Below, piece after piece: positions 3,952-44,517 of a DNA stretch of 64,000 nt. The notes under the pieces are model-generated. The model ran no database searches and was not told the DNA's origin. It saw only the letters and a program-made list of their open reading frames with translations. Source of the DNA: a virus; IMG/VR virus record IMGVR_UViG_3300000301_000012, positions 1 to 64,000 of that record. One strand, given 5' to 3'. Within the stretch, counting starts at the first letter, position 1; the number at the start of each line of letters is the position of its first letter. The translations under genes were made by a program, and so were the position numbers.

Positions 3952-4091
3952 TGGTACTAGCGGGTGGAATCGAACCACCGGCAACAGGTTTTGGTGAGTT
4001 AAAAAGGTCTTGCACCTTCATCTTTTTAAAGGTTTTACTTTTAAACTATTAACCCATAAGACCTGCCCCATCACCACTTGGGTACGCTAGT
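3952..4091 (-). tRNA. interrupted tRNA; becomes a perfect 76-nt tRNA-Ile(UAU)-type cloverleaf if the 64-nt insert is removed
   Basis: Acceptor ACTAGCG/CGCTAGT, D-arm CCCA-AGTGGTGA-TGGG, anticodon stem CAGGT/ACCTG, T-arm GGTGG-TTCGATT-CCACC, then A-CCA. The loop halves CUUAU and AA are separated by 3992-4055. Confidence 0.6.
3992..4055 (-). ncRNA. tRNA-shaped insert lacking an anticodon arm, nested in an anticodon loop
   Basis: Reads GGGTTAA-TA-GTTT-AAAAGTA-AAAC-(12 nt)-GAAGG-TGCAAGA-CCTTT-TTAACTC-A-CCA. It has a 7-bp acceptor stem, D-arm, T-arm, discriminator and CCA. Confidence 0.5.
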
Positions 4092-4318: not shown

Positions 4319-4398
4319 TAGACGCTATTAACTATTAAATTAAATATATAGGGTTATATTTAGACCAAGATATTTAAATAAATTGCCGTAAGCGTCTA
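4319..4398 (-). ncRNA. acceptor-stem-like hairpin spacer with conserved box (family member)
   Basis: Terminal stem TAGACGCT/AGCGTCTA, with the box TTACGGCAATT after the 5' arm on the minus strand. Confidence 0.35.
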
Positions 4399-4409
4399 AT
4401 AAAAATTTC

Positions 4410-4486
4410 AAAGCACAATTAAGTAATATTTATCTTCTTGTCACAAAGTATCTTAAACTTAAAGTTCAAATTGCTGAATGTGCTTT
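4410..4486 (-). ncRNA. acceptor-stem-like hairpin spacer with conserved box (family member)
   Basis: Terminal stem AAAGCACA/TGTGCTTT, followed by the box TTCAGCAATT. Confidence 0.35.
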
Positions 4487-5222: not shown

Positions 5223-5564
5223 ATATTAAGTGCCTAGCTACCTCGTAAAACTAGGCGGGCTAGTGCTTCTCACCCGTAGGCATTACCCTTACCTTATCGG
5301 TTTACATCCACACTATATCACCACTATTATTTAATGGGTAATTCGCAGCGAGGTTTTTAACGATAATCTTATATTTTCTGGACAACATAAAATTGCGCTA
5401 TTTATTCTTCCAAATTAGCCCTAAAAAGTTTCATCTTAATATGCTTGTTAGGAATCTGCGCCCGTTTTGTTATTCATAGCTTTACTTTTAGTTATAAGTT
5501 CCTAGGTTTTATAACTAAAAGTTACCAATATTCCGAATCCCACGGAATAATATAAGATTATCTT
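5223..5564 (-). ncRNA. unassigned structured non-coding block (about 340 nt)
   Basis: No ORF on either strand. A 13-bp long-range pairing joins GATAATCTTATAT (5549-5561) to ATATAAGATTATC (5362-5374). A 13-bp hairpin spans about 5483-5525. Further pairings are ATTACCC/GGGTAAT and GCCTAG/CTAGGC. Confidence 0.4.
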
Positions 5565-5641: not shown

Positions 5642-5647
5642 ATATAA

Positions 5648-5676
5648 GTGACTAATTATTTTAATTTGCTAGTCAC
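5648..5676 (-). ncRNA. short hairpin spacer with conserved box remnant (family member)
   Basis: Stem GTGACTA/TAGTCAC with a 15-nt loop that begins GCAAATT on the minus strand. Confidence 0.3.
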
Positions 5677-5746
5677 CAACAAATAGATGTTTGGGACACA
5701 CACAGTGGAGGGCACGGTCAGATTCGAACTGACGACACGCTGGTTA

Positions 5747-6415
5747 TGGCGTCAACTATGAGATTTGAACTCATATCTTTTCCCATTCTATATCAGAGTA
5801 TTTTTGAATATCTTTTCTCTTTGACGGTAAATTATACTTTTTACACCATTTACGAACAGCATTATCTGAAACTTTAAACATTTTTCCAATTGTAGTAAAC
5901 GGAGTATTTCTTATTAAGGATTTTAATTCTTCTCTACTTATTATATTTTTTTCTCTTAAACATTTCTAACATAACCCTGTTTTATTATTTGCAATTTCTT
6001 TTTTACAAGAAGAACAATAATATTGATGTTTTTTTGGATTTTTTAATTCTTCTGCTATATTTTTGTCATAAATTCTTTTTTGCTCAAGATATTCTTTAGT
6101 ATAAAAACCATCATGAACTTCTCTATGACAATTTGCACATAATAAAATACATTTCTAAATTTCTTGTAAATCTTCTTCCAAATTATGACAAATTCCTTTA
6201 GAAGAAATTCCGTACTCTTTTTCTTCAGGTCTTATATGATGAAATTCTAATGCACTTTTGCTTCTATTATAGCCACAAATATTACATTTATCACCACAAA
6301 CCCTTATTAAATTTTCTTTTCTTCTTCGTCTAAAATCAGAAGTTGCCTAACTACTCATAAATTTCACCATCAAACAATAGAATACAAAGAAAAATATTTC
6401 TTATACTAAGCTGAC
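5747..6415 (-). mobile_element. tRNA-shaped shell carrying an HNH endonuclease gene, nested in an anticodon loop
   Basis: The 5' end reads GTCAGCT-TA-GTAT-AAGAA-ATAT and the 3' end ATGAG-TTCAAAT-CTCAT-AGTTGAC-G-CCA. The acceptor stem has 7 bp including one G-U. The ORF replaces the anticodon arm. None of the ACGG...CCGTGCYAA group I core seen in the other three introns is present. Confidence 0.5.
5771..6358 (-). CDS. HNH homing endonuclease (3 in-frame TAG)
   Basis: ATG at 6358 and TGA at 5773-5771. The translation has CGDKCNICGY...EFHHI...CANCHREVH. TAG falls in the context GLC-TAG-KC. Not in the ORF track because TAG breaks it. Confidence 0.8.
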
Positions 6416-6451
6416 ACAGCCAGCTGCTCTGACCAACTGAGCTACGCACCC

Positions 6452-6977
6452 ATATAATGCCCTGGTTGCCAATCCTTCTCTGGTACTCAGACCTCTGGAG
6501 CGGCCGGGCCAGCCGCAAGAGTTTCTTTAATAAGGGAAACTACATAAAGACCTCCCCATCTTTCGTTAGGGACACGCTGAGGTTTAAGACCTCCCCCGTC
6601 TGTCGTTAGGGGTCACGCCGAGATTTTCAGGCACGAGGTACTCAGTACACACCCCGCTATTACGAGCGCCCGATGATGGACGCACTTAGTTTTTTCTCCG
6701 CAGAGAGGATATACTTTAACCCGAACTAGTTCTAGGCCTTTTTACTTCTTTACGCACATAAAAGACCACATAAACAACGCGCCATTTTACGAATTATTTC
6801 CACAGTTTGGGAGCCATACAAAAATAGTAACGAGGGCTTCGTCAGAAAGTTCTTATGCGACAAGAACTTACAATGAACGCTTTGAGTTTTTTCCTCGGAG
6901 TAAACCATCAACTAAATTTCTCGTATACAGAAACTTAATCTATTTTACAATCCTAGAAAAACGTTCCAAAGATTTAA
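6452..6977 (-). ncRNA. large structured non-coding RNA candidate (about 525 nt; ROOL/GOLLD-like context, class unconfirmed)
   Basis: No ORF, and visibly GC-richer than its flanks. It has many hairpins (AAGTTCTT/AAGAACTT, GCGGC/GCCGC, GTTTC/GAAAC). The module CCC(C)TAACGANAGAYGGGG(G)AGGTCTT is duplicated. It sits flush between two tRNA-type ends. Confidence 0.55.
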
Positions 6978-7509
6978 TGGTGGGCCATCTTGGTATCGAA
7001 CCAAGCGAGTCACAATGACAGCGGCTTTTGGAGATAGAATTTAGATTTGAACTAAAAAGTTGCAAGTATTAAATCCTTGGTTATTGGAATTTGGGATAGT
7101 TCTTAAAACTATTCTTGAAAGATTTCCAGATTTACGAATCTCTTCAACGGGAATTACAAAAAGATTCTTCATATCATCAGCACAAAATAATAAATCTACT
7201 GGATGATTTAGTAAATTATCATAAACTTGTCCCTTTGTTCCGCCTTTGTTTACCAATGAAATCTCCTTATTTTTACTAGCTGTAAATTTACATTGTACTG
7301 TTTGAAAAATATCATCTTTTTCTACAACTAAATCATACCATTGTGTATCATTAATTGGTAAACTAACAGTATAACCATTGGAACCAAAATATGCGATAGC
7401 AAGACTTAATCCCGCTCTTCCTTTATCCCTATTATTTAATAATTGCATAACCCTCCTCCATTAGGATTCTACCACAGGCCGCCCCGTCTCCTTAACGGAA
7501 TACTGACCC
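6978..7509 (-). mobile_element. tRNA-shaped shell carrying a PD-(D/E)XK endonuclease gene (free-standing)
   Basis: The 5' end reads GGGTCAG-TA-TTCC-GTTAA-GGAG and the 3' end CTTGG-TTCGATA-CCAAG-ATGGCCC-A-CCA, with 6 of 7 acceptor pairs. The architecture matches 5747-6415. Confidence 0.4.
7041..7448 (-). CDS. PD-(D/E)XK homing-endonuclease-like protein (I-Ssp6803I-like family)
   Basis: 135 aa with GGAGGAGGG before the ATG. The translation KGRAGLSLAIAYFGSNGYTVSLPINDTQWYDLVVEKDDIFQTVQCKF matches the D...(D/E)xK pattern of the small PD-(D/E)XK intron endonucleases. Confidence 0.7.
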   Translation of the reverse strand: MQLLNNRDKGRAGLSLAIAYFGSNGYTVSLPINDTQWYDLVVEKDDIFQTVQCKFTASKNKEISLVNKGGTKGQVYDNLLNHPVDLLFCADDMKNLFVIPVEEIRKSGNLSRIVLRTIPNSNNQGFNTCNFLVQI

Positions 7510-7596
7510 ATATAATGGCGGTTGGAGCTTATTTTAATTCGACGTCCGCCAACTCGAATGAAGGTTGAGTTATTGTCATTATACCTACAATATGAC

Positions 7597-7672: not shown

Positions 7673-7906
7673 ATAGAAATAGGAGTGACCGCCCTCCTAT
7701 TGGGTCTGTTGTTCCACTCCTATCGGTAGTTTTTAAATGGTGTTACCGACACCGATTTGCGTCAGGAGGAGTATCCTCCCCAATGGAATTTGTTGATACA
7801 ATCATAGAACCATCTCCTTCCAATAAACGCTTTTTAAGACTTAGCGTGGTACGCATTATTAAGAGGCGTGCTAAGTTCATTTCTACAAGAGGAACTTCCC
7901 ACTTGG
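7673..7906 (-). ncRNA. unassigned structured spacer immediately 3' of the suppressor tRNA
   Basis: No credible ORF. Hairpins are AGGAG-TGACCGCC-CTCCT, GGAGGA-GTA-TCCTCC, CGGTA...TACCG and CTTAGC...GCTAAG enclosing GCGT-GGT-ACGC. Confidence 0.35.
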
Positions 7907-7982
7907 TGGCAGCGGTTCTCAGAATCGAACTGAGTCCATCGCTTTTAGAGAGCGAGGCGCTAAACCGTTACGCTAAACCGCA
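7907..7982 (-). tRNA. amber suppressor tRNA(CUA), Gln-like identity features
   Basis: Anticodon stem TCGCT/AGCGA with loop CUCUAAA; the anticodon is complementary to plus-strand tag at 7946-7948. D-arm GCGT-AACGGTTTA-GCGC and T-arm CTCAG-TTCGATT-CTGAG. Acceptor TGCGGTT/AACCGCT has a U1-U72 mismatch, G2-C71 and discriminator G. CCA is followed by a second CCA. Confidence 0.85.
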
Positions 7983-8341: not shown

Positions 8342-8415
8342 TGGCAGAAAACGTCGGTGCTGCCCCGCTATTCCACCTCCCAAAGATGGCGTGTTACTGT
8401 TACACTACGTTCTCT
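8342..8415 (-). tRNA. tRNA-Pro(UGG)
   Basis: Acceptor (A)GAGAAC(G)/(C)GTTTTC(T). Anticodon stem CCATC/GGTGG with loop UUUGGGA. The T-arm is weak and non-canonical (loop GGCAGCA). It abuts tRNA-Ala. Confidence 0.7.
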
Positions 8416-8491
8416 TGGTGGAACTAAGGGGATTCGAACCCCTAACCCTCTGCGTGCAAAGCAGATGCGCTTCCAATTACGCTATAGCCCC
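8416..8491 (-). tRNA. tRNA-Ala(UGC)
   Basis: Acceptor GGGGCTA/TAGTTCC carries the G3-U70 alanine identity pair. Loop UUUGCAC, T-arm AGGGG-TTCGAAT-CCCCT, A-CCA. Confidence 0.9.
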
Positions 8492-8640: not shown

Positions 8641-9387
8641 CATACTACTCTATGTCACCATAGCCGCATTACTGCGTTGTAGTCTGGACTATGTCTTCAC
8701 CATATCTCTCAACTTAGGTGGTTGGTATATAGTCTCTACACATTTATTTGGTGCAGTTCTTTCCACGATAGGAATCTGTTAAAGCGTGACAATTTGGACA
8801 TAATAATTCATAATTTTCTATACTATTATTATGTCTATTGCCATCTTTATGATGTAACTCTAATGGAATTGGATTGCCAAGCCATTCGGTTAAACCGCAA
8901 TGTTCACACTTATGTTCTTTATACCCTTCTTCTAACAACTTTATTCTAACTTTGTTTGATTGAATATCTTTGCTATTTTCAAGATATTGAACTAATGTCA
9001 TTTTTTCTTTAACTTTAGAATAACCTTTTCCACTTTGATTTCCATCATACTTTAAGCCTAATCTCTCTAATACGCTATTAATAGTTTTAGGATTACATCC
9101 TAATTCTCTTGCCATATAAGCTTTAGATCTGTTCTCAGAAATCCATCGTTCAATTTCTGCCTTACGCTCTAAAATATCTGTTCTCATAAGTATCACTCCT
9201 TTTTTTTCTTTCTACTTATAAGTAGAAAAGGAACACACTTATTACAGAATTTTGATGCGTAATCCAAAATTTAGCACGGCGTTCTGTGTTTGCCTTCGCC
9301 GTTTAGCCAACTTCTACTTTCACAATTTCTTGTGAAGCACTCTCTATCCAAAAGATAGCACTTCTTTTTAGGAAGTGAAACACATTA
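8641..9387 (-). mobile_element. group I intron with HNH homing-endonuclease ORF
   Basis: The 5' splice site follows U and the 3' splice site follows G. The core element GGCTAAACGGCG...ACGCCGTGCTAAATT resembles the P4-P6/P7 region of phage group I introns such as T4 td. The insertion site is the classical tRNA-Leu(UAA) position. Confidence 0.7.
8744..9187 (-). CDS. HNH homing endonuclease (intron-encoded)
   Basis: The translation has CEHCGL...LELHHKDGNRHNNSIENYELLCPNCHA. AGGAGTG lies 6 nt before the ATG at 9187. Stop is TAA. Confidence 0.85.
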   Translation of the reverse strand: MRTDILERKAEIERWISENRSKAYMARELGCNPKTINSVLERLGLKYDGNQSGKGYSKVKEKMTLVQYLENSKDIQSNKVRIKLLEEGYKEHKCEHCGLTEWLGNPIPLELHHKDGNRHNNSIENYELLCPNCHALTDSYRGKNCTK

Positions 9388-9587
9388 AAGTCAGCAGCGT
9401 ATACCGATTTCGCCACACTCCCATAGCGTCCCTCTCGTTTCATAGCTCATTGAGCCGATTTTGCAGGCTTGGGACTGCCGATGGCACGATTAACGCTAAA
9501 TGCCGAACTGAGAGAGTGAAAGGAAAGGAAAAATCTCTCTCATTCAACATTAATATTATATCAAAATTTTTAGTTTATTTCAAATTT

Positions 9588-10654: not shown

Positions 10655-12130
10655 TTAAACTTTACCAATCCAAACGCAATCATACATAGGATTATTAAGA
10701 GTTTCAATCATAACATCCCAACCAGTCTTACCGTTCAACGCAGCAGTCAGTTCTTTAAAAGAAGAAGGAGAACCGCCACTTACATGGATAAGATCAGGAC
10801 TATTACCCAAGAAAGTATTGCTACGAGCGTAAACATTCCAAAGAACTAGCTTAGGAAGATTAAAACCGTATTTAGCAAATTTCTTCCTCTGAATTTCTAC
10901 GAAATCATCATTAATATTATCTCTTTGAGAAATCCAGTCAATTTCCATATCAGAAATAACGATAATAGCTTTAGGCATTTCATCGTTAGGAATCTTATAG
11001 TCAATACCAGTTCTCAATACTAAATTGAAAGCTTCATTTAAATCAGTATTATATCCAAAATCCGTCCCTTCGGCCTTTACTATTTTTTGATAAATGTCGT
11101 CACTCTCTTTAAGAGTAATAAAATGAGGATTATCAGTAAAAGTCATGTAAAGATTATGGAAATAACCTTTATTTCTTTCAGCAAAATAAACTGCCAAACT
11201 AGTAGACATTGCCATAGGACGTCCAGACATAGAACCAGATACATCAGCCATAACAATATAGTTATTTTCACCTTCGACATAATTAGGAAGTCCATTCCAC
11301 TGAGCCTGGAGTAAATCTCTAGCTTGCATATTACAGCTACTAATTCTATCTGATTTTTCCTTAAGGTCGTAAGGATAAAGGACAGAACTATTGACTTTAG
11401 ATTCGCCAGTCTTTAAACCTGCAACATATTCATTAAATCTATCTTCATCATGTCTACGGAAAGCATCGGAATAATTCTTCATAGCATAAGAAGGAACATT
11501 ATCATAAATAATTTCATCCCAATTATTCGCAGACATATCTCTCTCAACAATTCGAATAGCATGACGCAACCTAGACAGAGCTTTACGATAAGTTCTGCTA
11601 GTCATACCCAACTCACCAATGGCGCGCCGTGCAAGATGAATAGTCTCAGGAGAAGAAGCATTTTCAGAAGGCATCCACTTACCCAGAAGACTTACAGAAT
11701 TGCCCTTAGCGCAATTAACTAGATCTTCTTTAAAGGTTTCCTTAATCAAATCCCACATTACCTTCTCGCATTTTGTTCCAGTAAGAACAAAAAGAGAATC
11801 CCAACGATTAAAATGGGGAATCAACTTAATATTATTCTCTACATATTTAGGCGCAATATTTGCCAAAGTTTTTAGACAAATACGGAAAGTTCTGCGCTCA
11901 CCTAAACCGCCACGAATGTTACCGGCATAAAATAACATCTTAGTAGTCAATTCAGGATTTTCTCTAAAAGAATTTGTAAACATTTCACTAATGTCTTTCA
12001 CACTTCGACTTCTCAAAGCACCGATGACACCAAAAAGAGATAAAACATTACTATCCAAACAGGAATAAGCGTTCATTCCATTTTCAGTAAACTTATCGGT
12101 AGTATTCTTAGCGGCTTGTGCAAAATTCAT
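10655..12130 (-). CDS. DUF2828-type protein with C-terminal vWA domain (Ro60/TROVE-like architecture)
   Basis: 491 aa. The N-terminal region reads TENGMNAY...LFYAGNIRGGLGERRTFR. The C-terminal vWA domain has the MIDAS motif DVSGSMSG. The TROVE-plus-vWA order matches Ro60. Confidence 0.75.
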   Translation of the reverse strand: MNFAQAAKNTTDKFTENGMNAYSCLDSNVLSLFGVIGALRSRSVKDISEMFTNSFRENPELTTKMLFYAGNIRGGLGERRTFRICLKTLANIAPKYVENNIKLIPHFNRWDSLFVLTGTKCEKVMWDLIKETFKEDLVNCAKGNSVSLLGKWMPSENASSPETIHLARRAIGELGMTSRTYRKALSRLRHAIRIVERDMSANNWDEIIYDNVPSYAMKNYSDAFRRHDEDRFNEYVAGLKTGESKVNSSVLYPYDLKEKSDRISSCNMQARDLLQAQWNGLPNYVEGENNYIVMADVSGSMSGRPMAMSTSLAVYFAERNKGYFHNLYMTFTDNPHFITLKESDDIYQKIVKAEGTDFGYNTDLNEAFNLVLRTGIDYKIPNDEMPKAIIVISDMEIDWISQRDNINDDFVEIQRKKFAKYGFNLPKLVLWNVYARSNTFLGNSPDLIHVSGGSPSSFKELTAALNGKTGWDVMIETLNNPMYDCVWIGKV

Positions 12131-12166: not shown

Positions 12167-12277
12167 AGACGCAATAGCTCCAAAGAAGGGACTCGAACCC
12201 TTAAATACTGAATTTAACGTTCAGAGCTTTTTCCTTTTAAGCTACTTCGGAAATCTCTCGCTTCGCTGTTCGCGTCT
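12167..12277 (-). ncRNA. stem-enclosed tRNA-like RNA directly upstream of the Ro60-like gene
   Basis: Basal pairing AGACGC (12277-12272 complement) with GCGTCT (12172-12167 complement). The box-like GAACAGCG follows the 5' arm. It encloses the cloverleaf at 12178-12251. Confidence 0.45.
12178..12251 (-). tRNA. tRNA-like cloverleaf with UUA in the anticodon position and G33 (probably not a decoding tRNA)
   Basis: Acceptor TCCGAAG/CTTTGGA and D-arm GCTT-AAAAGGAAA-AAGC. Anticodon stem CTGAA/TTCAG with loop CGUUAAA. T-arm AAGGG-TTCGAGT-CCCTT, no CCA. Confidence 0.5.
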
Positions 12278-25496: not shown

Positions 25497-26963
25497 GTGA
25501 GTTATAATGCTGATTCAATAAAAATTAAAGATTTTGCTACAGCGTGTAGAGATACTCCATCTATGTATTTAGGTGATGATAGACAGAACGGAATTTTTAA
25601 TGCGTTTCTTGAAATTCTTAATAATGCTTGTGATGAAGCTATTATGAAACGAGGAAATGTCATTACTGTTGATATGGAAGATGATTGTTTACAAATTGAA
25701 GATAGGGGTCGTGGAGTACCTCATGGAGAGAATGCTGACTGTAAGGAAGTTCTAATTGAACTTTTTACCAAAAGCCATTCTAGTGGTAAATTTGATACAA
25801 ATAACTATAAAAAAGTTCGAGGACTTCATGGCGTTGGTTCTAGCGCTGTTTGTGTTTGTTCTAAGACTTTTGAAGTATGGACAAAACGAGATGGATATAC
25901 TTGGTATTTAAAATTTAATGATGGTATTCCTGAAACGGAAGTTGCTCAACAAGGCGCGCCGACCAATGAGACTGGAACCATTATTAAGTTTTCTCCTAAT
26001 AAAAAAGTCTTCCATCTTAATGAAGATGAAAAATGTTTTGATTACAATAGAATAAGAGAAGAATTAGAATTAACTTCATATTTTATTCCTAATGTTACTT
26101 TTGTATTAAAATATAATGGAAGAACCGAAAGGTTCCTTTCTAAAAACGGATTAAAAGACTTTGCTAAAAGTAGAATTAAAAACCCTCTTCATAAGAATTT
26201 TATTTATGGATATAAAGAATTTGATGATGAAGTTGAAGTTGAGGTTTTTGCACAGTGGACCGCTGGAAAAGAAGAGTCTTACGTCTTTTCTAATGGCGCC
26301 TTAAATGCAGAAGGCGGTACTCCAATAACTGGTGCGAAAACCGCTTTTACGAGAACTATTAACTCTTTGTCCAAGGGTGAGTTTGACGCTGATATGATTA
26401 GAAAGGGATTAGTGTATATTATTAATATTCATCATCCCCATCCTATCTATCAGAATCAGATTAAAAATAAAATTCAAAATCCAGAACTTAGAGGATATAC
26501 CCAAACTGTTTTTAGTGAAGCAATTAAAGATTTTGTTTATAAGAATAAAAATGAATTTGAAAAGATTGTTGAAGTTTTAACTAAAGAAAAGAAAGCAGAA
26601 GCTGCGGCAGAACGAGCTAGACGTCAGGTTCTTGAGGCCACTAAGGATATTGAAAAAAATCAGAGAAAGAAAGTTTTTTCTTCTGATAAGTTAAAGGATG
26701 CAGAATTTTTAGGAGAAGACTCTACACTTTTAATTGTAGAGGGTAATTCTGCGGCAGCTTCAATGGCGGTAGCGAGAGATATTAAGAAATATGGTATTCT
26801 TGGTATTAGAGGCAAACTTTTAAATTGTCTTGCCCATCCAGAAGAAAAGATTTTTCAGAACGAAGAAATTAAACTTCTTCTTAGCGCAATGAATATTAAT
26901 CCAGGAAAGTATGATAGTAAAAAACTTAGATATGGAAAAATCGCAATTTGTGTTGATGCGGAT
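25497..26963 (+). CDS. type II topoisomerase ATPase subunit (GyrB/ParE-like), exon 1
   Basis: GTG start after AAAGGAGGA. The GHKL ATPase and Toprim regions are present (LIVEGNSAA). The exon ends within KIAICVDAD, just before the DG of the conserved DxDxDG motif. Confidence 0.85.
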
Positions 26964-28048
26964 AGAACTTAAAGAACTGTCCAAAAATGCTTTACTCTTA
27001 ACCAAGAGGGTCTACATATAAATGTAAGGATGGATTACATATAAATGTAGGCTAACGGTATCAGTGAAATAAGACTTCTCATTGAAACTATAAAGAGATA
27101 ATGGGATATATCCAAAGACGAATAAGCTGACTAAGAAACCCTAAACCTGAAATATGGTGAGATAAAGGGAATACCGTGGGAATCAGAATTAATCCATTCC
27201 TTCTTATTAAAAAGGAGGAATTAAAATGATAGGTATTTATAAAATAACCAAAAAAGAAAATGGCAAATCTTATATAGGACAATCTAACAATATAGAACGA
27301 AGATTTAAAGAACATCGACATAAGACAGATATTCCTATTGAATTAGCAATTCAAAAATATGGAGTAGATGCTTTTGAATACAAAATAATTGAGGAATGTT
27401 CTTTAGATGAGTTAGATGAAAAAGAAAAGTATTGGATAGCATATTATAATACATATAAAGGTTTCGGTTATAATTGTAATGAAGGCGGTGGAAATAACAG
27501 ATGTGAAAATAACGGAAGAACTAAATTAACTAATGAAGAAGTTAGTTATATTAGAGAATGTTATGATTTACATATGCGCCGACGTGAAGTATATAAAAAG
27601 TTTAAAGATAAAATTTCTTTTGGTGCTTTTGCTAGTATTTGGGATGGCTCTACTTGGAAAGAAATTAAGCCAGAAGTATATACCGAAGATAATAAGAAAT
27701 ATTATATGTATGAAGCTACCAATGGCGGAAAATCAGAAAGCGCTTGTTTAACAGATGAAGAAGTTATGAAATGTAGAACACGCTATATGAAAGAAACCGC
27801 AAAACAAATATATGAAGATTATAAAGAAAAAATAACTTATCAAGCTTTTCAAGCTATGTTATGGGGAAGAAGCTATAAAAATTTACCCATATATAGCAAA
27901 AAGAAAAAGGAATGGATTAATAAATGAAGCCTGTAACGACTATCTCCGTGAAGGAGAGTACAATTACTATTGGTACGTGATTGGAAAGAGCATTCTCATT
28001 TAATGAGTAAAATATAGTCTAAGCCATTTGAAAAAATGGAACATCTTG
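26964..28048 (+). mobile_element. group I intron with GIY-YIG ORF in the topoisomerase gene
   Basis: The 5' splice site follows U (gat|a) and the 3' splice site follows G (cttg|agt). Splicing restores in-frame ...VDAD-SDGYHIG.... Core elements are GCTAACGGTAT...ATACCGTGGGAA and TGTAACGACTATC, both shared with the dnaE intron. Confidence 0.7.
27226..27927 (+). CDS. GIY-YIG homing endonuclease
   Basis: The translation begins MIGIYKITKKENGKSYIGQSNNIERRFKEH. AAGGAGGA lies before the ATG. Confidence 0.85.
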   Translation: MIGIYKITKKENGKSYIGQSNNIERRFKEHRHKTDIPIELAIQKYGVDAFEYKIIEECSLDELDEKEKYWIAYYNTYKGFGYNCNEGGGNNRCENNGRTKLTNEEVSYIRECYDLHMRRREVYKKFKDKISFGAFASIWDGSTWKEIKPEVYTEDNKKYYMYEATNGGKSESACLTDEEVMKCRTRYMKETAKQIYEDYKEKITYQAFQAMLWGRSYKNLPIYSKKKKEWINK

Positions 28049-39590: not shown

Positions 39591-40936
39591 ATGACAAATC
39601 AGTATCCTGGTAGTTTACATAACCATACTGATTATTCTTAGTTCTAACTTTCGTTTGCGCGATTCAATAAATACGGTTGAATCTTTGGTTAATCGAGCAA
39701 TAGAACTTGGTCATAATGTTTTGGCAATAACCGAACATGAAACAATTAGTTCTGCCATTAAAGCAGAGAAAGTTTATAATAAAGTAAAAAAAGACCATCC
39801 TGATTTTAAATTAATTTTGGGTAATGAGATTTATCTCTGTAGAAATGGATTAAACGCTCAAAATTTTAATAGAGAAAATGACAGATATTATCACTTCATT
39901 CTTTTAGCTAAAGATGCTATTGGACATGAACAAATTAGAGAGATTTCTACCAGAGCTTGGAGCCACTCTTACATGGCGCGCGGTATGATGCGCGTTCCAA
40001 CTTATTATCAAGATTTATATGAAGTTATTGGCAGAAACCCTGGACATGTAATTGGAAGTACAGCTTGCTTAGGTGGCGCTCTACCTACTCAACTTTTAAA
40101 ATATAGAAAAAATCATAGTAAAGATTTATATAAAAAGATTTGTCTTTGGTGTAGACAGTTGAAAGATTTATTTAGAGAAGGTAATTTTTATTTAGAAATG
40201 CAACCCTCTCGAAATGAAGAACAAATTTATGTAAATAAAAATTTAATTAAGCTTTCAGAAGAATTAGATATTCCTTATATTATTACAAACGATTCTCATT
40301 ATCTTAAAAAAGAGGATATTAATATTCATCATGCTTTTCTTAATGCTCAAGGCGGCGACAGAGAAACGGAAAGTTTTTATGCTACTACTTATTTAATGAG
40401 TACAGAAGAAATTTATGAATATATGGAGCAAACTCTAGGGGAAGAGGTTCTTCAAAAAGCTTTTAATAATATTCTTAAAATTAAAGAAAAATGTGAAGAC
40501 TATTCTTTAATGCACCCATTGAGAATTCCATATTTACCCAAACATCCTTCAGAGCCAAATGAAGATTATTATAATGAGTTTGTTAAAGATATTCCTATAA
40601 TGGAATCTTTTAAAAATTCTGAGTATGATAGTGATAGACATTTGTTAAGTGTAGTTTTAAATAAAATAAAAAAAGATTCTCAGTATCAAAATAAGAGAGC
40701 TTATGATGAAATAAATATTTGCTTAAAAAGTGTTTGGGATTCTTCTGAGGCTTCTCGCACAAGATGGTCTGCATATTTAATGAATGTTAGAGATTATATC
40801 GAGATTGCTTGGGAGGACGGAGATACTCTTATTGGTCCTTCTCGTGGGTCTGGCGGTGGATTTATTTTATTAAATATTTTAGGTATTACACAAATTAACC
40901 CACTAAGAGAAAAAACTAAGTTATTTCCTTGGAGGT
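39591..40936 (+). CDS. dnaE: DNA polymerase III alpha (DnaE-type), exon 1, with a frame break near codon 17
   Basis: ATG at 39591 gives MTNQYPGSLHNHTDYS, the PHP HxH motif. That frame then hits TAG (39639) and TAA (39645). The body (NFRLRDSINTVE...AITEHE...) runs in the +1 frame, open from 39595, and ends at the intron. Confidence 0.75.
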
Positions 40937-41863
40937 TAGCTAATGTGGCATAAGCCTCCTCTCTATGGTGACATAGTTAAAATAAACGCTGTGAACGCCT
41001 TTAGCAAGCGGTGTCCGAAAGGGCTAACGGGGAAAATCTTATAAAAATAAAGACAATCCCGTGCCAAGTTACTTTATCATTGGAGAGCCAATAATAAAGT
41101 AAAAGGTGTAACGACTATCCGAAAGGAGTAGGGTGGATTTGCTACCACTCGAAGCGCAGCGGCTCTCATAATATTTAAAGTAGGTGATATTATGGGATAT
41201 ATTTATAAAATTCAAAATAAAATAAATGATAAAATTTATATTGGACAAACAGTAGCTAGTCCACAAAGAAGATGGACTTAGCATAAAAACAATATAAAAA
41301 GAGATTACTTATAGCATATAGCTTTATACAAAGCTATGAATAAATATGGTATCGAAAATTTTACTTTTGAAGTTTTAGAAGAAGTTTCAAATAATTTGCT
41401 CGATGAACGAGAAAAATATTGGATAAAAAATTTTAATAGCTATGGTAAAAATGGTTATAATATGACTCTAGGTGGAAGATGTACTAAACTTTATAATTGG
41501 GATGAACTTGAAATAATTGAGTTATACTATAAAGAGAAATCTGCTAGAAAAGTTGCAAAAATAATTGGATGCGACCATAGTACTGTTGATAAAATTTTAA
41601 ATGCAAATAATATTCCTAGATTTTCTATTGCATAGCAAATTAGTAAAAGAATAGTCCTAGAAAAAGATGATAAATATTTATTTGAAACGACTTCTGATGC
41701 TGCTAAATGGCTAATAGAAACTGGAAAAACAAGAAGTAAAAATTTTCATAGCATAAGATAGCAAATTTCAGAAAAAGCAAGAGTAAATGGAATTTATTTT
41801 GGATTTAAAGTATATTATGAGAGTAAGATATAGTCTACCCCACTAGAAATAGTGGATAAGGTG
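40937..41863 (+). mobile_element. group I intron with GIY-YIG ORF in dnaE
   Basis: The 5' splice site follows U (aggt|t) and the 3' splice site follows G (ggtg|tt). Splicing gives ...LFPWR-F-MNPERVSPLDIDID..., the conserved RF(L/M)NPER motif. The core GCTAACGGGGAA...GACAATCCCGTGCCAAGTT is close to the T4 td intron core. TGTAACGACTATCC is shared with the topoisomerase intron. Confidence 0.75.
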
Positions 41864-41869
41864 TTATGA
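41192..41869 (+). CDS. GIY-YIG homing endonuclease (5 in-frame TAG)
   Basis: The translation reads MGYIYKIQNKINDKIYIGQT...RRWT-TAG-HKNN. Track ORF 41336-41635 is in the same frame. The first non-TAG stop is TGA at 41867. Confidence 0.75.
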
Positions 41870-44517
41870 ATCCTGAGCGAGTTAGTCCTTTGGATATTGA
41901 TATTGATATTGAAGGCTCTAAAAGAGATAAAGTATATAGTGCTTTTCAAAAACATTATGGCGCAAATAGAGTTTCTAAAGTTTTAACTTTAAGAACTGAA
42001 AAATCTAAATCAGCGGTTCTTACTGCCGCGCGCGGACTTGGTATTGATGTTGATATTGCTCAATATTTATCTTCTATGATTACGGCAGATAGAGGATTAT
42101 TAAGAACTTTAAAACAAACTGCTTATGGTGATGAAGATAATAATATTTCAGCTAATAATCAATTTAGGATTGAAATGGAAGAAAATTATCCTGAACTTTG
42201 GGAAGTTGCACAAAGAATTGAAGGTTTAATCTGTGGGGTTGGTTCTCATGCAGGCGGTGTTATTTTTGTAGACGAACCTTTTTATAAAACAACGGCATTG
42301 ATGAAAACTTCTAATGGTGACGTTGTAACTCAATTTGACCTTCATGATGCCGAGGATGTAAGTTTAATAAAAATTGACCTGTTGTCTATTGAGGCTCTTG
42401 ATAAAATCCATATTTGTTTGGATTTACTTTGTGATTATGGATATATTACACGAGAAAAAACTTTAAAAGAAACCTATGAAAAAGTTCTTGGTATTTATAA
42501 TCTTGAACGAGATAATCCTGATATGTGGAAAATGCTTTGGAATCATGAAGTAATGTCATTATTCCAAATGGAAAAACAAAGTGGTATTCAAGGAATTGCA
42601 TTGACTCATCCTTCTTCTGTTGATGATTTAGCAGTTATTAATTCAGTAATGAGATTGATGGCTTCTGAAAAAGGCGCGGAGCAACCGTTGAGCAAATATG
42701 CCAGATATAAAGACAACATAAATCTTTGGTATGATGAAATGATAAATTATGGATTAACTGAAGACGAAATTAATTGGCTTAGAAGCTATTTAGATATTTC
42801 TTTTGGTATTTGTGAAACACAAGAAAAACTAATGTCTATGGTACAAGACGAAAGAATAGGTGGCCATTCTCTTCTTTTTGCTGATAGATTAAGAAAATCT
42901 ATTGCAAAGAAAAAACCAGTAGAATTTTTACAATGTGAAAAAGAGTTTTTTGAAACTATAGAAGAAAAGCATTTATCCAAAAGATTGGCCAATTATGTTT
43001 GGAATGTTATTTTTAAGGTTCAAAGAGGATATTCATTTTGTGCCGCGCATACGCTTGCCTATAGTTTAGTGGGATTACAAGAGTTAAATCTTGCTTTTAA
43101 ATATCCTATTGTTTTTTGGAATTGTGCTTGTTTAATTACAGATAGTGGTGGATTAGAACAAGAGCAAGAGGAAGAAGAAGATATTTATTCCGAAGAAACT
43201 CAATATATTAATTGTATTGAAGAATTTACGGAAGATGAAGAAGAAGACGATGATGATGACGATGAAGAAGAAAAAGATTCTACTAAAAAGAAAAAGAAAG
43301 TAAAAACAGTAAACTTCGGTAAGATAGCTACAGCAATTGGAAAAATGAAAGCAATAGGAATTGAGGTGGCTCCACCTGATATAAATAAATCAGGATATAC
43401 TTTTTCTCCAGAAGTAAAAACTAATACTATTCGTTATGGTCTAAGCGGCATTACTAGAGTTGGGGAAGAAATTATTCAAAATATTCTTTCTAATAGACCA
43501 TACTCTACTTTACAAGATTTTCTTTCTAAAGTAAAAGTTACAAAGCCTCAAATGGTTAATCTAATTAAATCAGGTGCATTTGATAGTTTTGGAGATAGAG
43601 AAGAAGTAATGAAAAAATATATTGCTTCAATTAGTAGTCCCAAAACTAGATTAACATTACAAAATATGAGAATGTTAATTGATAACAACTATATTCCGCC
43701 TCATTTAGATTTTCAAATTAGACTTTTTAATTTTAATAAATATTTAAAGAATTTTAAATATGAAAATAAATATTTGTTGAATGATATTGCTCTTAGCTTC
43801 TTTGATAAAAATTTTGATGTAGATGAATTAATTGTAATGAATAATTCTGAATATCAATATGCTATTCTTCAAACTAAATGGGACAAGATATATAAGAAAG
43901 GTATGGACCCTGTTAGAGACTTTTTAAAAAGCCATCAAGAAGAATTACTTAAAGAAGTAAATGAAGGATTAGTAAAAGAATTGTGGGATAAGTATTGTAG
44001 TGGCAATATTAGTAAATGGGAAATGGATTCAGTTTCTTATTACTCACACGATCATGAACTGAAAAATGTTGATTGCGCCCGCTACAATTTTTCTGATTAT
44101 AGTTATCTTTCTGAAAATCCTGAAATTGACAGAATTATAGAAATCAAAGGGAAAAAGATTCCATTATTTAAATTACATCGTATTATTGGAACTGTTCTTG
44201 ATAAGGATAAAAATAAAAAAACAGTTACTATTTTAACTACTAGTGGAGTAGTTACAGTTAAGATTTACGGTGGAGTATATTCTCATTATGACCGACAAAT
44301 TTCCAGAAAAGACCCAAAGACAGGAAAGAAAAAAGTTATAGAAAAATCTTGGTTTTCAAGAGGTAATAAAATAATTGTAACTGGAATTAGACAAGAGGAT
44401 GGATTCTTAGCTAAAAAATATAAAAATACACCTTATCATTTAGTGGAATTAATTGAAAAAGTAAAAGATGATGGAAGTATTTTAATAAGAAGTGAAAGAA
44501 TTGAGGAAGAAGAATAA
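41864..44517 (+). CDS. dnaE: DNA polymerase III alpha, exon 2
   Basis: The translation has MNPERVSPLDIDIDIEG...GSHAGGVIF...QMEKQSG..., and a C-terminal OB-like region. An acidic E/D insertion lies at about 43141-43290. Confidence 0.85.

What the first reader, a model, noticed from the sequence alone, without database searches (positions are those of the whole stretch)
6452..6977. About 525 nt of GC-enriched, hairpin-dense non-coding sequence inside the tRNA array
No ORF exists on either strand, yet the block is much more GC-rich than the surrounding DNA. It is packed with stems: an 8-bp AAGTTCTT/AAGAACTT, GCGGC-TGGCCCG-GCCGC, GTTTC/GAAAC and CGAGG/CCTCG. It also contains a duplicated pseudoknot-like module CCC(C)TAACGANAGAYGGGG(G)AGGTCTT. 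It is flush with tRNA-type ends on both sides. Large ornate RNAs of unknown function (ROOL, GOLLD) are reported mainly from phages and prophages next to tRNA genes, so this is a candidate member or a new class.
Basis: partly seen in the sequence, partly recalled or inferred. Interest (0 to 1): 0.75.

Follow-up and report, generated by a model that had tools for sequence, protein, structure and literature searches.

The report
Two structured RNAs between split tRNAs
The GC-rich block is not one giant RNA but two separate non-coding RNA genes of previously undescribed families, lying head to tail in a gut phage's tRNA cluster and probably released by the enzymes that trim tRNAs; what they do is unknown.

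Summary
Window 6452-6977 is non-coding, GC-enriched and abuts tRNA sequence on both sides. Everything reads on the minus strand. The flanks are exon 2 of a split tRNA-Tyr and exon 1 of a split tRNA-Asn.

The block is not a single RNA. Related phages carry its two parts independently.

Module A (6977->6688) belongs to a conserved structured RNA family of about 280-310 nt. Over 12 sequences from several lineages, 26 of 39 predicted pairs show compensatory changes, against 16.7±1.8 in shuffles and 3-9 in slid controls.

Module B (6653->6452) is the 3' domain of a second family. It is 91-96% identical across three lineages and carries a 41-nt tandem duplication here. Diverged relatives show covariation in helix P2.

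Neither module matches any Rfam family (GOLLD, ROOL, tmRNA, RNase P and group I are absent from every hit list). An RNase P resemblance was tested and rejected.

Both RNAs fill the space between tRNAs exactly, so tRNA-processing enzymes probably release them. A Ro60-like protein is encoded 3.7 kb upstream on the same strand, so a Y-RNA-like partnership is possible but untested.

The flanking tRNAs are interrupted by unusual tRNA-like introns, which may be the more novel feature of the locus.

The parts
6688..6977 (-). Module A: a structured non-coding RNA and member of a new family ('A family'). It starts right after the CCA of the upstream tRNA and ends with the conserved G(G)AAAACU.
   Evidence: This segment is 94-97% identical in window relatives L006-L012 and L014. 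Homologues also occur in diverged lineages: L015 (two copies), L017, L021, L001-L004, L020, L022 and L024 (nhmmer). The MAFFT alignment A10 was folded with RNAalifold. It gives 39 pairs in 8 helices, 92.5% of cells paired against 75.2±1.4 in shuffles (0/500), and 26 pairs with compensatory changes against 16.7±1.8 (0/500) and 3-9 in slid controls. Helices in window coordinates: 6953-6950/6726-6723; 6933-6929/6921-6917; 6871-6860/6856-6845; 6840-6835/6815-6811; 6803-6801/6781-6779; 6767-6760/6742-6735; 6722-6719/6710-6707.
6942..6969 (-). Sigma-70-like promoter match (TTGGAA-16-TAAAAT) at the 5' end of module A.
   Evidence: This is a consensus scan only, matching 9 of 12 positions. It is present only in the window-type version of A and is not evidence of function.
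6654..6687 (-). 34-nt linker between A and B-core (AAGUGCGUCCAUCAUCGGGCGCUCGUAAUAGCGG).
   Evidence: In B-less alleles (L006, L010, L012, L015) a related stretch runs straight into ..GUAAYAGCCGGUUUAU|tRNA-Asn.
6452..6653 (-). Module B ('B-core'): the 3' domain of a second RNA family. It ends in AUUAUAU directly against the 5' end of tRNA-Asn.
   Evidence: B-core is 91-96% identical to the corresponding segment of L001-L004, where it lies between tRNA-Gly and tRNA-Ile. The flanking tRNAs there are only about 65-80% identical. Its borders are sharp. It is single-copy per contig. It is absent from 185,579 representative genomes. Diverged versions of the whole family exist in L020, L022, L024, L052 and L053.
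6618..6645 (-). Helix P2 of module B: CUGAG (6645-6641) pairs with CUCGG (6622-6618). It encloses the conserved 18-nt segment UACCUC-RU-GCCKGAAAA.
   Evidence: Four of the five pairs change on both sides across L001, L004, L020 and L053 (UA/CG, GC/AU, AU/GC, GC/AU; alignment A9 columns 118-122 with 142-146).
6545..6626 (-). 41-nt tandem duplication inside module B. Each copy holds the hairpin CCC(C)-UAACGAMAGAY-GGGG.
   Evidence: There are two copies in this window and in L011, and one copy in L007-L009, L014 and L001-L004. The loop motif ACGA(A/C)A is kept in all B-family versions.
6978..7028 (-). tRNA-Tyr(GTA) exon 2 (the upstream 'tRNA-type end').
   Evidence: Exon 1 plus exon 2 is identical to the uninterrupted 87-nt tRNA-Tyr of L006.
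7029..7473 (-). tRNA-like intron of tRNA-Tyr at anticodon position 35/36. It holds a PD-(D/E)XK homing-endonuclease ORF (7448->7041).
   Evidence: Pfam PDDEXK_5 matches at E=5e-13. The intron ends pair 7 of 7 (GGUAGAA/UUCUAUC), preceded by a T-arm-like hairpin and followed by U+CCA.
7474..7509 (-). tRNA-Tyr exon 1.
6416..6451 (-). tRNA-Asn(GTT) exon 1 (the downstream 'tRNA-type end').
   Evidence: Exon 1 plus exon 2 is identical to the uninterrupted 77-nt tRNA-Asn of L007. BLAST hits to phage tRNA-Asn genes support the identity.
5747..6415 (-). tRNA-like intron of tRNA-Asn at 35/36. It holds an HNH endonuclease ORF (6358->5771) with in-frame TAG codons.
   Evidence: The ends pair 7 of 7 (GUCAGCU/AGUUGAC), with a T-arm-like hairpin followed by G+CCA. 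HNH similarity appears. An ORF-less 63-nt version sits at the same site in L006, L010 and L011.
5706..5746 (-). tRNA-Asn exon 2.
10655..12130 (-). Ro60-like (TROVE + vWA) protein gene, 3.7 kb upstream of module A on the same strand.
   Evidence: Pfam assigns DUF2828 and DUF7788. The AF2 model has pLDDT 80. Foldseek top hits are the TROVE domain entry 9kop, the Ro60 of Thermus phage phiLo (9l5y), Xenopus Ro (1yvp) and Deinococcus Rsr (2nvo), with probability 1.0 and E from 7e-8 to 1e-5.

Best explanation
The 526-nt block holds two independent non-coding RNA genes on the tRNA (minus) strand, joined by a 34-nt linker. Module A is a roughly 290-nt multi-helix RNA of a family that recurs in the tRNA arrays of related ~100-140 kb gut phages. 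Module B is the 3' domain of a second family, whose full form is ~230-255 nt. It was probably acquired or homogenised by recombination between phages, and it is locally duplicated by 41 nt in this window.

Both RNAs fill the space between two tRNA genes exactly. I infer that they are co-transcribed with the tRNAs. 3' maturation of the upstream tRNA would define their 5' end, and RNase P cleavage of the downstream tRNA would define their 3' end. This amounts to release by tRNA punctuation.

Shown: homology, independent inheritance of the two modules, conserved secondary structure of A, helix P2 of B, and absence from known families. Inferred: transcription, the processing route, and function. 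My best guess for function is that they act as stable protein-binding RNAs. The phage's own Ro60-like protein is the most concrete candidate partner.
For: All 15 ARAGORN tRNAs lie on the minus strand, and the flanks are tRNA-Tyr exon 2 and tRNA-Asn exon 1.

Modularity is clear from relatives. A plus B occurs in L007-L009, L011 and L014. A alone occurs in L006, L010, L012, L015, L017 and L021. Neither occurs in L005. A and B are separated by tRNA-Gly genes in L001-L004, L020, L022 and L024. B occurs without A in L053.

Covariation supports module A. Covariation supports helix P2 of module B.

The RNAs fill the inter-tRNA space exactly. In L001, tRNA-Lys ends at 439, A spans 440-715 and tRNA-Gly starts at 716. 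The B-family spacer 872-1110 then runs up to tRNA-Ile at 1111. L015 16118-16459 lies between two tRNA-Asn genes.

The RNAs are not coding. No Rfam family matches. The Ro60 fold of the upstream protein is shown. Y RNAs are reported within 4 kb of Ro60 genes on the same strand (PMC4201824, read). The Thermus phage Ro60 binds phage-encoded Y-like RNAs (PMC12135203, read).
Against: There is no expression or processing data. Module B shows no compensatory change within the B-core alleles: 0 double changes, 9 one-sided wobble changes, and 5 pairs with disruptions. Its folding z-score is unremarkable (-0.7 for the sense strand).

The window family lacks the 5' domain of the B family, so B here may be a truncated, non-functional remnant. 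The genomes are recombination mosaics, so the near-identity of B-core need not reflect constraint.

YrlA hallmarks are missing. The Rfam YrlA model does not hit A or B. GNCGAAG occurs in this window's A (6843) but is not conserved in the family. The RNAs are two to three times longer than known Y RNAs. Ro60-like genes in L016, L018 and L019 have no A or B within 10 kb.
Confidence: 0.6

Rival explanations
1. A and B are the two halves of one large bipartite RNA of the GOLLD/ROOL kind. The linker between the halves can hold tRNAs in some phages and is short in this window.
For: A and B lie in the same order, with tRNA-Gly genes between them, in L001-L004, L020, L022 and L024. [quoted passage not shown] This parallels a variable A and a nearly invariant B-core. 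The location in a phage tRNA island also fits.
Against: No GOLLD or ROOL hit appears at any threshold. A occurs without any B-family RNA in L006, L010, L012, L015, L017 and L021, and B occurs without A in L053. No pairing between A and B is better than chance: 32 of 200 shuffles score as well.
Confidence: 0.1
2. A and/or B are unusually large Y-RNA-like partners of the phage Ro60 homologue, forming an RNP that could recruit host PNPase.
For: A Ro60-fold protein is encoded 3.7 kb upstream on the same strand. The published rule places Y RNAs within 4 kb on the same strand (PMC4201824). Phage Ro60 binds phage Y-like RNAs carrying a CGAA motif (PMC12135203). A has GACGAAG at 6843-6837, and every B-family version keeps ACGA(A/C)A in a hairpin loop.
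Against: The YrlA covariance model does not hit A or B. The GNCGAA motif is not conserved across the A family. The sizes are 200-300 nt against 80-130 nt for known Y RNAs. There is no 5'-3' terminal stem carrying the motif. Ro60-like genes in L016, L018 and L019 lack A or B nearby.
Confidence: 0.2
3. The block, or at least B-core, is non-functional: a recombination scar or hitch-hiking mobile DNA spread by the many homing endonucleases in the array.
For: B-core has sharp borders and near-identity in otherwise diverged flanks. It shows presence/absence polymorphism among near-identical phages. The genomes are mosaics. GIY-YIG, HNH, LAGLIDADG and PD-(D/E)XK genes are dense in the arrays. The window carries only the 3' domain of the B family.
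Against: Module A has strong covariation. B-core is single-copy per 93-138 kb contig and has no inverted terminal repeats. The B family keeps helix P2 by compensatory change and always sits flush with a tRNA 5' end.
Confidence: 0.15
4. The B-family RNA is a reduced, cis-acting RNase-P-like ribozyme that matures the tRNA attached to its 3' end.
For: In L004, L020 and L053 the 5' domain has GGGAAAGUCCGCGCC, which resembles RNase P CR-I. That motif can pair with the 3' end CGUGGAC just before AUUAUAU|tRNA, a P4-like closing helix with one U-A to C-G exchange. L020 also has UGAAAGGGUGG.
Against: No RNase P model is hit, even in 500-850-nt searches. Local alignment to E. coli rnpB is no better than shuffles, 19 to 51 of 200. 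The window's copy lacks the 5' domain altogether.
Confidence: 0.03

Closest known systems
GOLLD and ROOL RNAs (Rfam RF01998, RF03087)
   Same: All are large, structured, non-coding RNAs of unknown function encoded in phage or prophage tRNA islands. GOLLD can carry tRNAs in the linker between a variable 5' part and a conserved 3' part (PMC12286853). That resembles the A - tRNA-Gly - B arrangement in L001-type phages.
   Different: There is no covariance-model match. A and B are inherited independently. Their sizes are ~290 and ~200-255 nt, against ~580 nt for ROOL (figure from my own knowledge) and >800 nt for GOLLD (PMC12286853). No evidence of oligomeric cages exists for A or B.
Bacterial and phage Y RNAs (YrlA; Ro60/Rsr partners)
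   Same: They are encoded within 4 kb of a Ro60-fold gene on the same strand, embedded among tRNA-like sequence, and carry CGAA-type motifs.
   Different: There is no YrlA model hit. A and B have no tRNA-like T/D module of their own and no terminal stem carrying GNCGAA. They are two to three times longer than known Y RNAs.
Phage T4 'species 1' and 'species 2' stable RNAs (rnaC, rnaD) in the T4 tRNA cluster (from my own knowledge, not tested here)
   Same: They are stable RNAs of unknown function co-located and co-processed with phage tRNAs.
   Different: No sequence comparison was done. The T4 RNAs are about 120-140 nt.
tRNA-punctuated processing (mitochondrial transcripts, MALAT1-mascRNA; from my own knowledge)
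   Same: The RNA ends would be defined by RNase P and by tRNA 3' processing of flanking tRNAs.
   Different: This is a processing principle, not a family. It is inferred here only from exact abutment to tRNA genes.

Membership tests
GOLLD RNA (RF01998) | Match to the family covariance model | tested here: not met
   There is no hit at the gathering threshold or at E<=10, including a 526-nt search of the block alone and a 671-nt search of L001 A-tRNA-tRNA-B.
GOLLD RNA (RF01998) | Conserved 3' region joined to a variable 5' region as one RNA, with tRNAs sometimes in the linker | tested here: inconclusive
   The order A - tRNA-Gly - B occurs in L001-L004, L020, L022 and L024. However, each part also occurs alone.
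ROOL RNA (RF03087) | Match to the family covariance model | tested here: not met
   No hit.
tmRNA | tRNA-like domain plus tag reading frame (ARAGORN; Rfam tmRNA models including the permuted form) | tested here: not met
   ARAGORN finds no tmRNA. The only tmRNA_permuted hit is 16 bits at 8355-8443, on tRNA sequence outside the block.
Bacterial RNase P RNA | Covariance-model match, or significant similarity to rnpB | tested here: not met
   No Rfam hit. Smith-Waterman scores against E. coli rnpB were reached by 19-51 of 200 shuffles.
Group I intron | Lies between exon 1 and exon 2 of one gene, with a P3-P9 core | tested here: not met
   The flanks are exon 2 of tRNA-Tyr and exon 1 of tRNA-Asn, which are different genes in the wrong order for an intron. 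No Intron_gpI hit was found.
Y RNA / YrlA | Encoded within ~4 kb of a Ro60 orthologue on the same strand | tested here: met
   The Ro60-fold gene is at 12130->10655 and A starts at 6977, 3.7 kb downstream on the same strand. The criterion comes from PMC4201824.
Y RNA / YrlA | GNCGAAN0-1G in the 5' strand of a stem formed by the RNA's two ends | tested here: not met
   GACGAAG at 6843-6837 lies mid-RNA. The L001 and L004 members have GACUUGU and GACUUAG at that place.
Y RNA / YrlA | tRNA-like module (T- and D-arm mimics), as detected by the YrlA model | tested here: not met
   The only YrlA hits overlap real tandem tRNAs in L001 and L002, not A or B.
Y RNA / YrlA | Physical binding to Ro60 | not testable with these tools
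   This needs EMSA or co-immunoprecipitation.
Type III antitoxin RNA (ToxI-like) | Tandem array of pseudoknot-forming repeats next to a toxin endoribonuclease gene | tested here: not met
   The repeat is single in most alleles and double only in this window and L011. No toxin gene was seen among the neighbouring ORFs scanned.
MITE / IS-derived non-autonomous element | Multiple genomic copies, terminal inverted repeats, target-site duplication | tested here: not met
   There is one copy per contig of 93-138 kb and no paralogues by covariance model. No terminal inverted repeats are visible on direct reading of the ends. Only a short CAGGG(U) direct repeat occurs at the borders.

The most novel reading that the evidence does not exclude
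The B-family RNA, always fused by AUUAUAU to the 5' end of a tRNA, could be a cis-acting ribozyme or chaperone that matures its own downstream tRNA without host RNase P. Its conserved GGGAAAGUCC-type motif would be closed by a P4-like helix. A less radical variant is that A and B are giant Y-RNA-like partners of the phage Ro60 protein.
Probability: 0.04. Interest if true: 0.9.

Novelty: new member of a known kind. Interest (0 to 1): 0.6.

Why it matters
Phage tRNA islands are known to hide large orphan RNAs such as GOLLD and ROOL, whose functions are still unknown. This locus adds two further families.

Module A has good covariation support. Module B has an unusual evolutionary pattern: a nearly frozen 3' domain that is exchanged between lineages.

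The genome is a stop-codon-recoded gut phage that also encodes a Ro60-like protein, an ATP-dependent ligase-domain protein and intron-split tRNAs. That combination gives concrete, testable hypotheses. One is a Ro60-RNA particle. Another is release of RNAs by tRNA punctuation. A third is enzyme-mediated splicing of tRNA-like introns. Together they bear on how such phages manage their own translation apparatus.

Tried and rejected
- **Rfam searches:** I ran six searches, at gathering and at E<=10 on progressively smaller stretches. Only tRNAs and noise came back.
- **Homology in other collections:** INPHARED phages gave nothing beyond HNH and tRNA hits. Two GTDB genome scans for B-core 20-23-mers found zero matches.
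- **Early negative for A:** A plain Smith-Waterman of module A against L001-L004 was not better than shuffles. That made me think A was lineage-specific, until a profile HMM built with the diverged L015 copy found the L001-type homologues.
- **Long-range helix P1 in B:** I proposed P1 between the two CUGAGUACC copies from the MFE fold. I abandoned it when diverged relatives showed that the 5' copy pairs locally instead, as P2.
- **Strand from wobble bias:** My first count for B-core, 10 wobble-compatible against 2 disruptive changes, shrank to 9 against 5 in the formal count and is not significant.
- **Pairing of the B tail with A:** A 10-bp duplex is possible, but 32 of 200 shuffles do as well.
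- **RNase P idea:** rejected.
- **Coding potential:** Rejected under standard, TAG-sense, TGA-sense and TAA-sense codes, and by indel pattern.
- **Promoter and terminator scan:** One promoter-like site lies at the start of A, and one weak terminator-like hairpin is in fact the B hairpin.
- **Protein look-ups and sequence searches:** The look-up of the intron endonuclease found no record. PDB sequence search of the Ro60-like protein found nothing. Only the fold search worked.
- **Literature:** Searches for tRNA-like introns or array RNAs in recoded phages found no prior description in the held library.

Full report
**Setting**

The window is an AT-rich (31.7% GC) phage-like sequence. It encodes DnaE-type polymerase, gyrase, DnaB, RecJ and NrdD. 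ARAGORN finds 15 tRNA genes, all on the minus strand. Two are suppressors, with anticodons CTA and TTA. The HNH ORF next to the finding has in-frame TAG codons, so TAG is probably read as sense. No close relative is in INPHARED. Ten near-identical relatives (L005-L014) were recovered from public assemblies through a neighbouring 145-aa protein.

**The observation**

The coordinates are exact. On the minus strand the block starts right after ...ACCA of a tRNA 3' half (A6978). It ends with AUUAUAU right before GGGUGCG of a tRNA 5' half (G6451).

GC is 43.7% overall. It is 38% in the upstream 316 nt and 52% in the downstream 210 nt, while the tRNA genes are 49%. The longest start-to-stop ORFs are 50-55 aa. 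Relatives that are 94-98% identical differ by single-base indels and a 41-nt duplication, so the block is non-coding.

Folding energy alone is only marginal. The z-score is -2.0 for the minus strand and -0.2 for the plus strand.

**What the 'tRNA-type ends' are**

ARAGORN missed two split tRNA genes. Joining 7509->7474 to 7028->6978 gives a sequence identical to the intact 87-nt tRNA-Tyr(GTA) of L006. Joining 6451->6416 to 5746->5706 gives the intact 77-nt tRNA-Asn(GTT) of L007. The finding therefore lies between exon 2 of tRNA-Tyr and exon 1 of tRNA-Asn. It is a spacer between genes, not an intron.

**The block is two modules**

BLAST of the block against the relatives, together with their sequences, gives this pattern:

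| Content | Loci |
|---|---|
| A + B | L007, L008, L009, L014 (single copy of the 41-nt unit); L011 (duplicated, like the window) |
| A only (6977->6688), followed by a short joint ..GUAAYAGCCGGUUUAU\|tRNA-Asn | L006, L010, L012 |
| Neither (no tRNA-Tyr, A or B) | L005 |

A 22-mer from the GC-rich half found unrelated, GC-richer phage contigs (L001-L004). There, window 6660->6452 is 91-95% identical to a segment that sits between tRNA-Gly and tRNA-Ile. The tRNAs of those contigs are only about 75-80% identical to the window's.

**Module A is a conserved structured RNA**

Homologues of a neighbouring protein led to a more distant lineage (L015, L017). A profile HMM that included L015 detected a weak match in the tRNA-Lys->tRNA-Gly spacer of L001 and L003 (E=0.006). 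After rebuilding the profile, clear matches appeared in L001-L004, in a second copy in L015 (19564-19816), and in L020-L024.

I made an unguided MAFFT alignment of 12 sequences (A10) and folded it with RNAalifold. It gives 39 pairs in 8 helices, of which 26 pairs show compensatory double changes. The pair count gives:

| Measure | Observed | Shuffled | Slid controls |
|---|---|---|---|
| Cells paired | 92.5% | 75.2±1.4% (0/500 reach it) | 40-57% |
| Pairs with a change on both sides | 26 | 16.7±1.8 (0/500 reach it) | 3-9 |

An 8-sequence version gave the same picture. One caveat applies: the structure was derived from the same alignment, and the sequences fall into a few clades. Even so, the margin over the slid controls is large.

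Conserved single-stranded motifs include the loop GUGCACG, CUGAC, GCCCUCGUUA, UUCGUAAA and the 3' end G(G)AAAACU.

In every locus the RNA fills the gap between two tRNA genes. For example, in L001 tRNA-Lys ends at 439, A spans 440-715, and tRNA-Gly starts at 716.

**Module B**

Across nine sequences, the 172-nt core (GGUGUGUAC...AUUAUAU) has very few variable sites. Identity drops abruptly at both borders. The core is single-copy in contigs of 93-138 kb. A covariance model finds no paralogues. Two scans of 185,579 species-representative genomes found nothing.

Within these near-identical alleles no compensatory change exists. There are 9 one-sided wobble changes and 5 pairs with disruptions, so structure cannot be tested there.

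The whole tRNA-Gly->tRNA-Ile spacer of L004 shares its 5' third (GGGAAAGYCCGCGCCC...AAAGACGG...GAGAGUAACAGCUCC...) with spacers in L020, L022, L024, L052 and L053. The 3' two-thirds of those spacers are strongly diverged versions of B-core. Across these types, helix P2 (window 6645-6641 with 6622-6618) keeps pairing through double changes in 4 of 5 pairs. The enclosed segment UACCUC-RU-GCCKGAAAA and a loop motif ACGA(A/C)A are conserved.

The B family is therefore a ~230-255-nt RNA. The window family holds only its 3' domain, fused to A by 34 nt.

Because these genomes are recombination mosaics, I read the near-identity of B-core as exchange between co-infecting phages rather than as nucleotide-by-nucleotide constraint. 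That is an inference.

**Comparison with known families**

No Rfam 15 family is matched. The hit lists (only tRNAs and low-scoring noise) hold no GOLLD, ROOL, tmRNA, RNase P, group I or YrlA match to A or B. This holds even in searches of 526 and 671 nt that report matches down to about 11 bits.

A tempting RNase P resemblance was tested. It comprises a CR-I-like GGGAAAGUCCGCGCC, a P4-like closing helix in L020, and UGAAAGGGUGG. Alignment to E. coli rnpB scores no better than shuffles, so I do not file it there.

GOLLD is reported to carry tRNAs in the linker between a variable 5' and a conserved 3' region (PMC12286853). The A - tRNA-Gly - B order in L001-type phages is reminiscent of this. 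However, A and B each occur alone, so I treat it as a resemblance only.

**A possible partner**

The 491-aa protein 3.7 kb upstream on the same strand (DUF2828 + DUF7788) folds as a Ro60 ring with a vWA domain. The model has pLDDT 80. Foldseek top hits are the TROVE/Ro60 of Thermus phage phiLo, Xenopus Ro60 and Deinococcus Rsr, with probability 1.0.

Y RNAs are typically encoded within 4 kb of Ro60 genes on the same strand (PMC4201824). The Thermus phage Ro60 binds two phage Y-like RNAs with a CGAA motif (PMC12135203). A and B satisfy the location rule and carry CGAA-type motifs. They fail the other YrlA hallmarks: no model hit, no conserved GNCGAA in a terminal stem, and the wrong size. I give this reading about 0.2.

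**Mechanism**

Three things are shown. First, there are two independent, conserved RNA genes on the tRNA strand. Second, A has a conserved multi-helix fold. Third, B has at least one covarying helix and invariant single-stranded segments.

The rest is inferred from the exact abutment to tRNA genes. The RNAs would be co-transcribed with the array. 3' maturation of the upstream tRNA and RNase P cleavage at the downstream tRNA would then release them. Their function is unknown. My preferred guess is a stable protein-binding RNA, with Ro60-like protein as the candidate partner.

**Verdict**

The single ROOL/GOLLD-like RNA is not supported. The flanking tRNA-like introns, described under things noticed, may be the more novel feature of this locus.

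Noticed in passing
window 7473->7029 (in tRNA-Tyr) and 6415->5747 (in tRNA-Asn), minus strand; L006 7250-7312, also L010 and L011: Both tRNAs flanking the finding are interrupted between anticodon positions 35 and 36. The insertions have first and last 7 nt that pair 7 of 7. They are preceded by a T-arm-like hairpin (xxxAGUUCAAAUCUxxx) and followed by a discriminator plus CCA, which makes an acceptor/T-arm minihelix. One carries a PD-(D/E)XK ORF and one an HNH ORF. A 63-nt ORF-less version sits at the same site in relatives. There is no room for a group I core: in tRNA-Tyr only 25 nt and 12 nt flank the ORF. This suggests excision by RNase P plus a CCA-end nuclease, followed by ligation. I found no prior description in the held literature.
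   Followed up: partly
L006 9766-10539 (tRNA-Ile TAT) and L009 8577-9005 (tRNA-Lys): Other endonuclease-bearing insertions lie in anticodon loops without the CCA or T-arm feature. The Ile intron ends pair UUCCUCA/UGAGGAA. Several intron types therefore coexist in these arrays.
   Followed up: no
window 10655-12130 (-): The DUF2828+DUF7788 protein has a Ro60 (TROVE + vWA) fold. Its family has more than 6,400 homologues in the metagenomic protein database, many on ~100-140 kb contigs and usually near an ATP-dependent ligase-domain gene.
   Followed up: yes
window 7839-7875 (-): An abiF RNA motif hit lies just under Rfam's threshold (36.8 against 37 bits, E=2.5e-4), in the spacer after the amber-suppressor tRNA. 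It could be a phage copy of an Abi-associated RNA.
   Followed up: no
L005 ~6165-6236, L011 ~4362-4433 and ~5379-5458, L012 ~5358-5437: GIY-YIG cassettes begin directly after the discriminator base of tRNA-Sup(CTA) or tRNA-Glu, replacing the encoded CCA. Their pairings (GGGCACA..UGUGUCU) are reminiscent of the HDV-like 'theta' ribozymes reported at phage tRNA 3' ends. That comparison is from my own knowledge and was not tested.
   Followed up: no
L002 6351-6407 (-): A twister-P1 ribozyme-like match (56 bits, E=1.5e-10, below the gathering score of 67) lies inside the tRNA array of an unrelated phage.
   Followed up: no
window 7907-7982 and 12177-12251 (-); HNH ORF 6358->5771: Suppressor tRNAs for TAG and TAA are present, and the intron HNH gene has in-frame TAG codons. 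The phage probably reads TAG as sense.
   Followed up: partly
window 9197-9470 (-): This is another non-coding stretch, 1.2 kb downstream of the Ro60-like gene, with GGCGAAGG at 9300 and z=-2.3. It is 98.7% identical to L015 although the adjacent proteins are only 61% identical. It is a candidate Y-like RNA and evidence of mosaicism.
   Followed up: partly
window 7510-7555 and 5642-5690 (-); L005 7225-7273: A recurrent tRNA leader consists of a hairpin whose loop holds AAUUAAAAUAA, followed by UUAUAU and the tRNA 5' end. It occurs before tRNA-Tyr and tRNA-Val, and before tRNA-Asn in L005. Most tRNAs in these phages are preceded by (Y)AUAU.
   Followed up: no
window 3995-4055 and 8346-8414 (-): Two extra tRNA-like matches were found by Rfam (40.9 and 29.6 bits) but not by ARAGORN. 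L011 and L014 also carry odd 'tRNA-???' genes.
   Followed up: no
L001 1188-1452; L002 7474-7730: A third ~260-nt GC-rich spacer lies between tRNA-Ile and tRNA-Trp in the L001-type arrays. It was not analysed and may be a further RNA family.
   Followed up: no
window 25497-27927 and 39655-44517 (+): The gyrB-like ORF is followed by a GIY-YIG gene. The DnaE-type polymerase is split into two ORFs (39655-40953 and 41866-44517). Mobile elements probably also interrupt replication genes.
   Followed up: no
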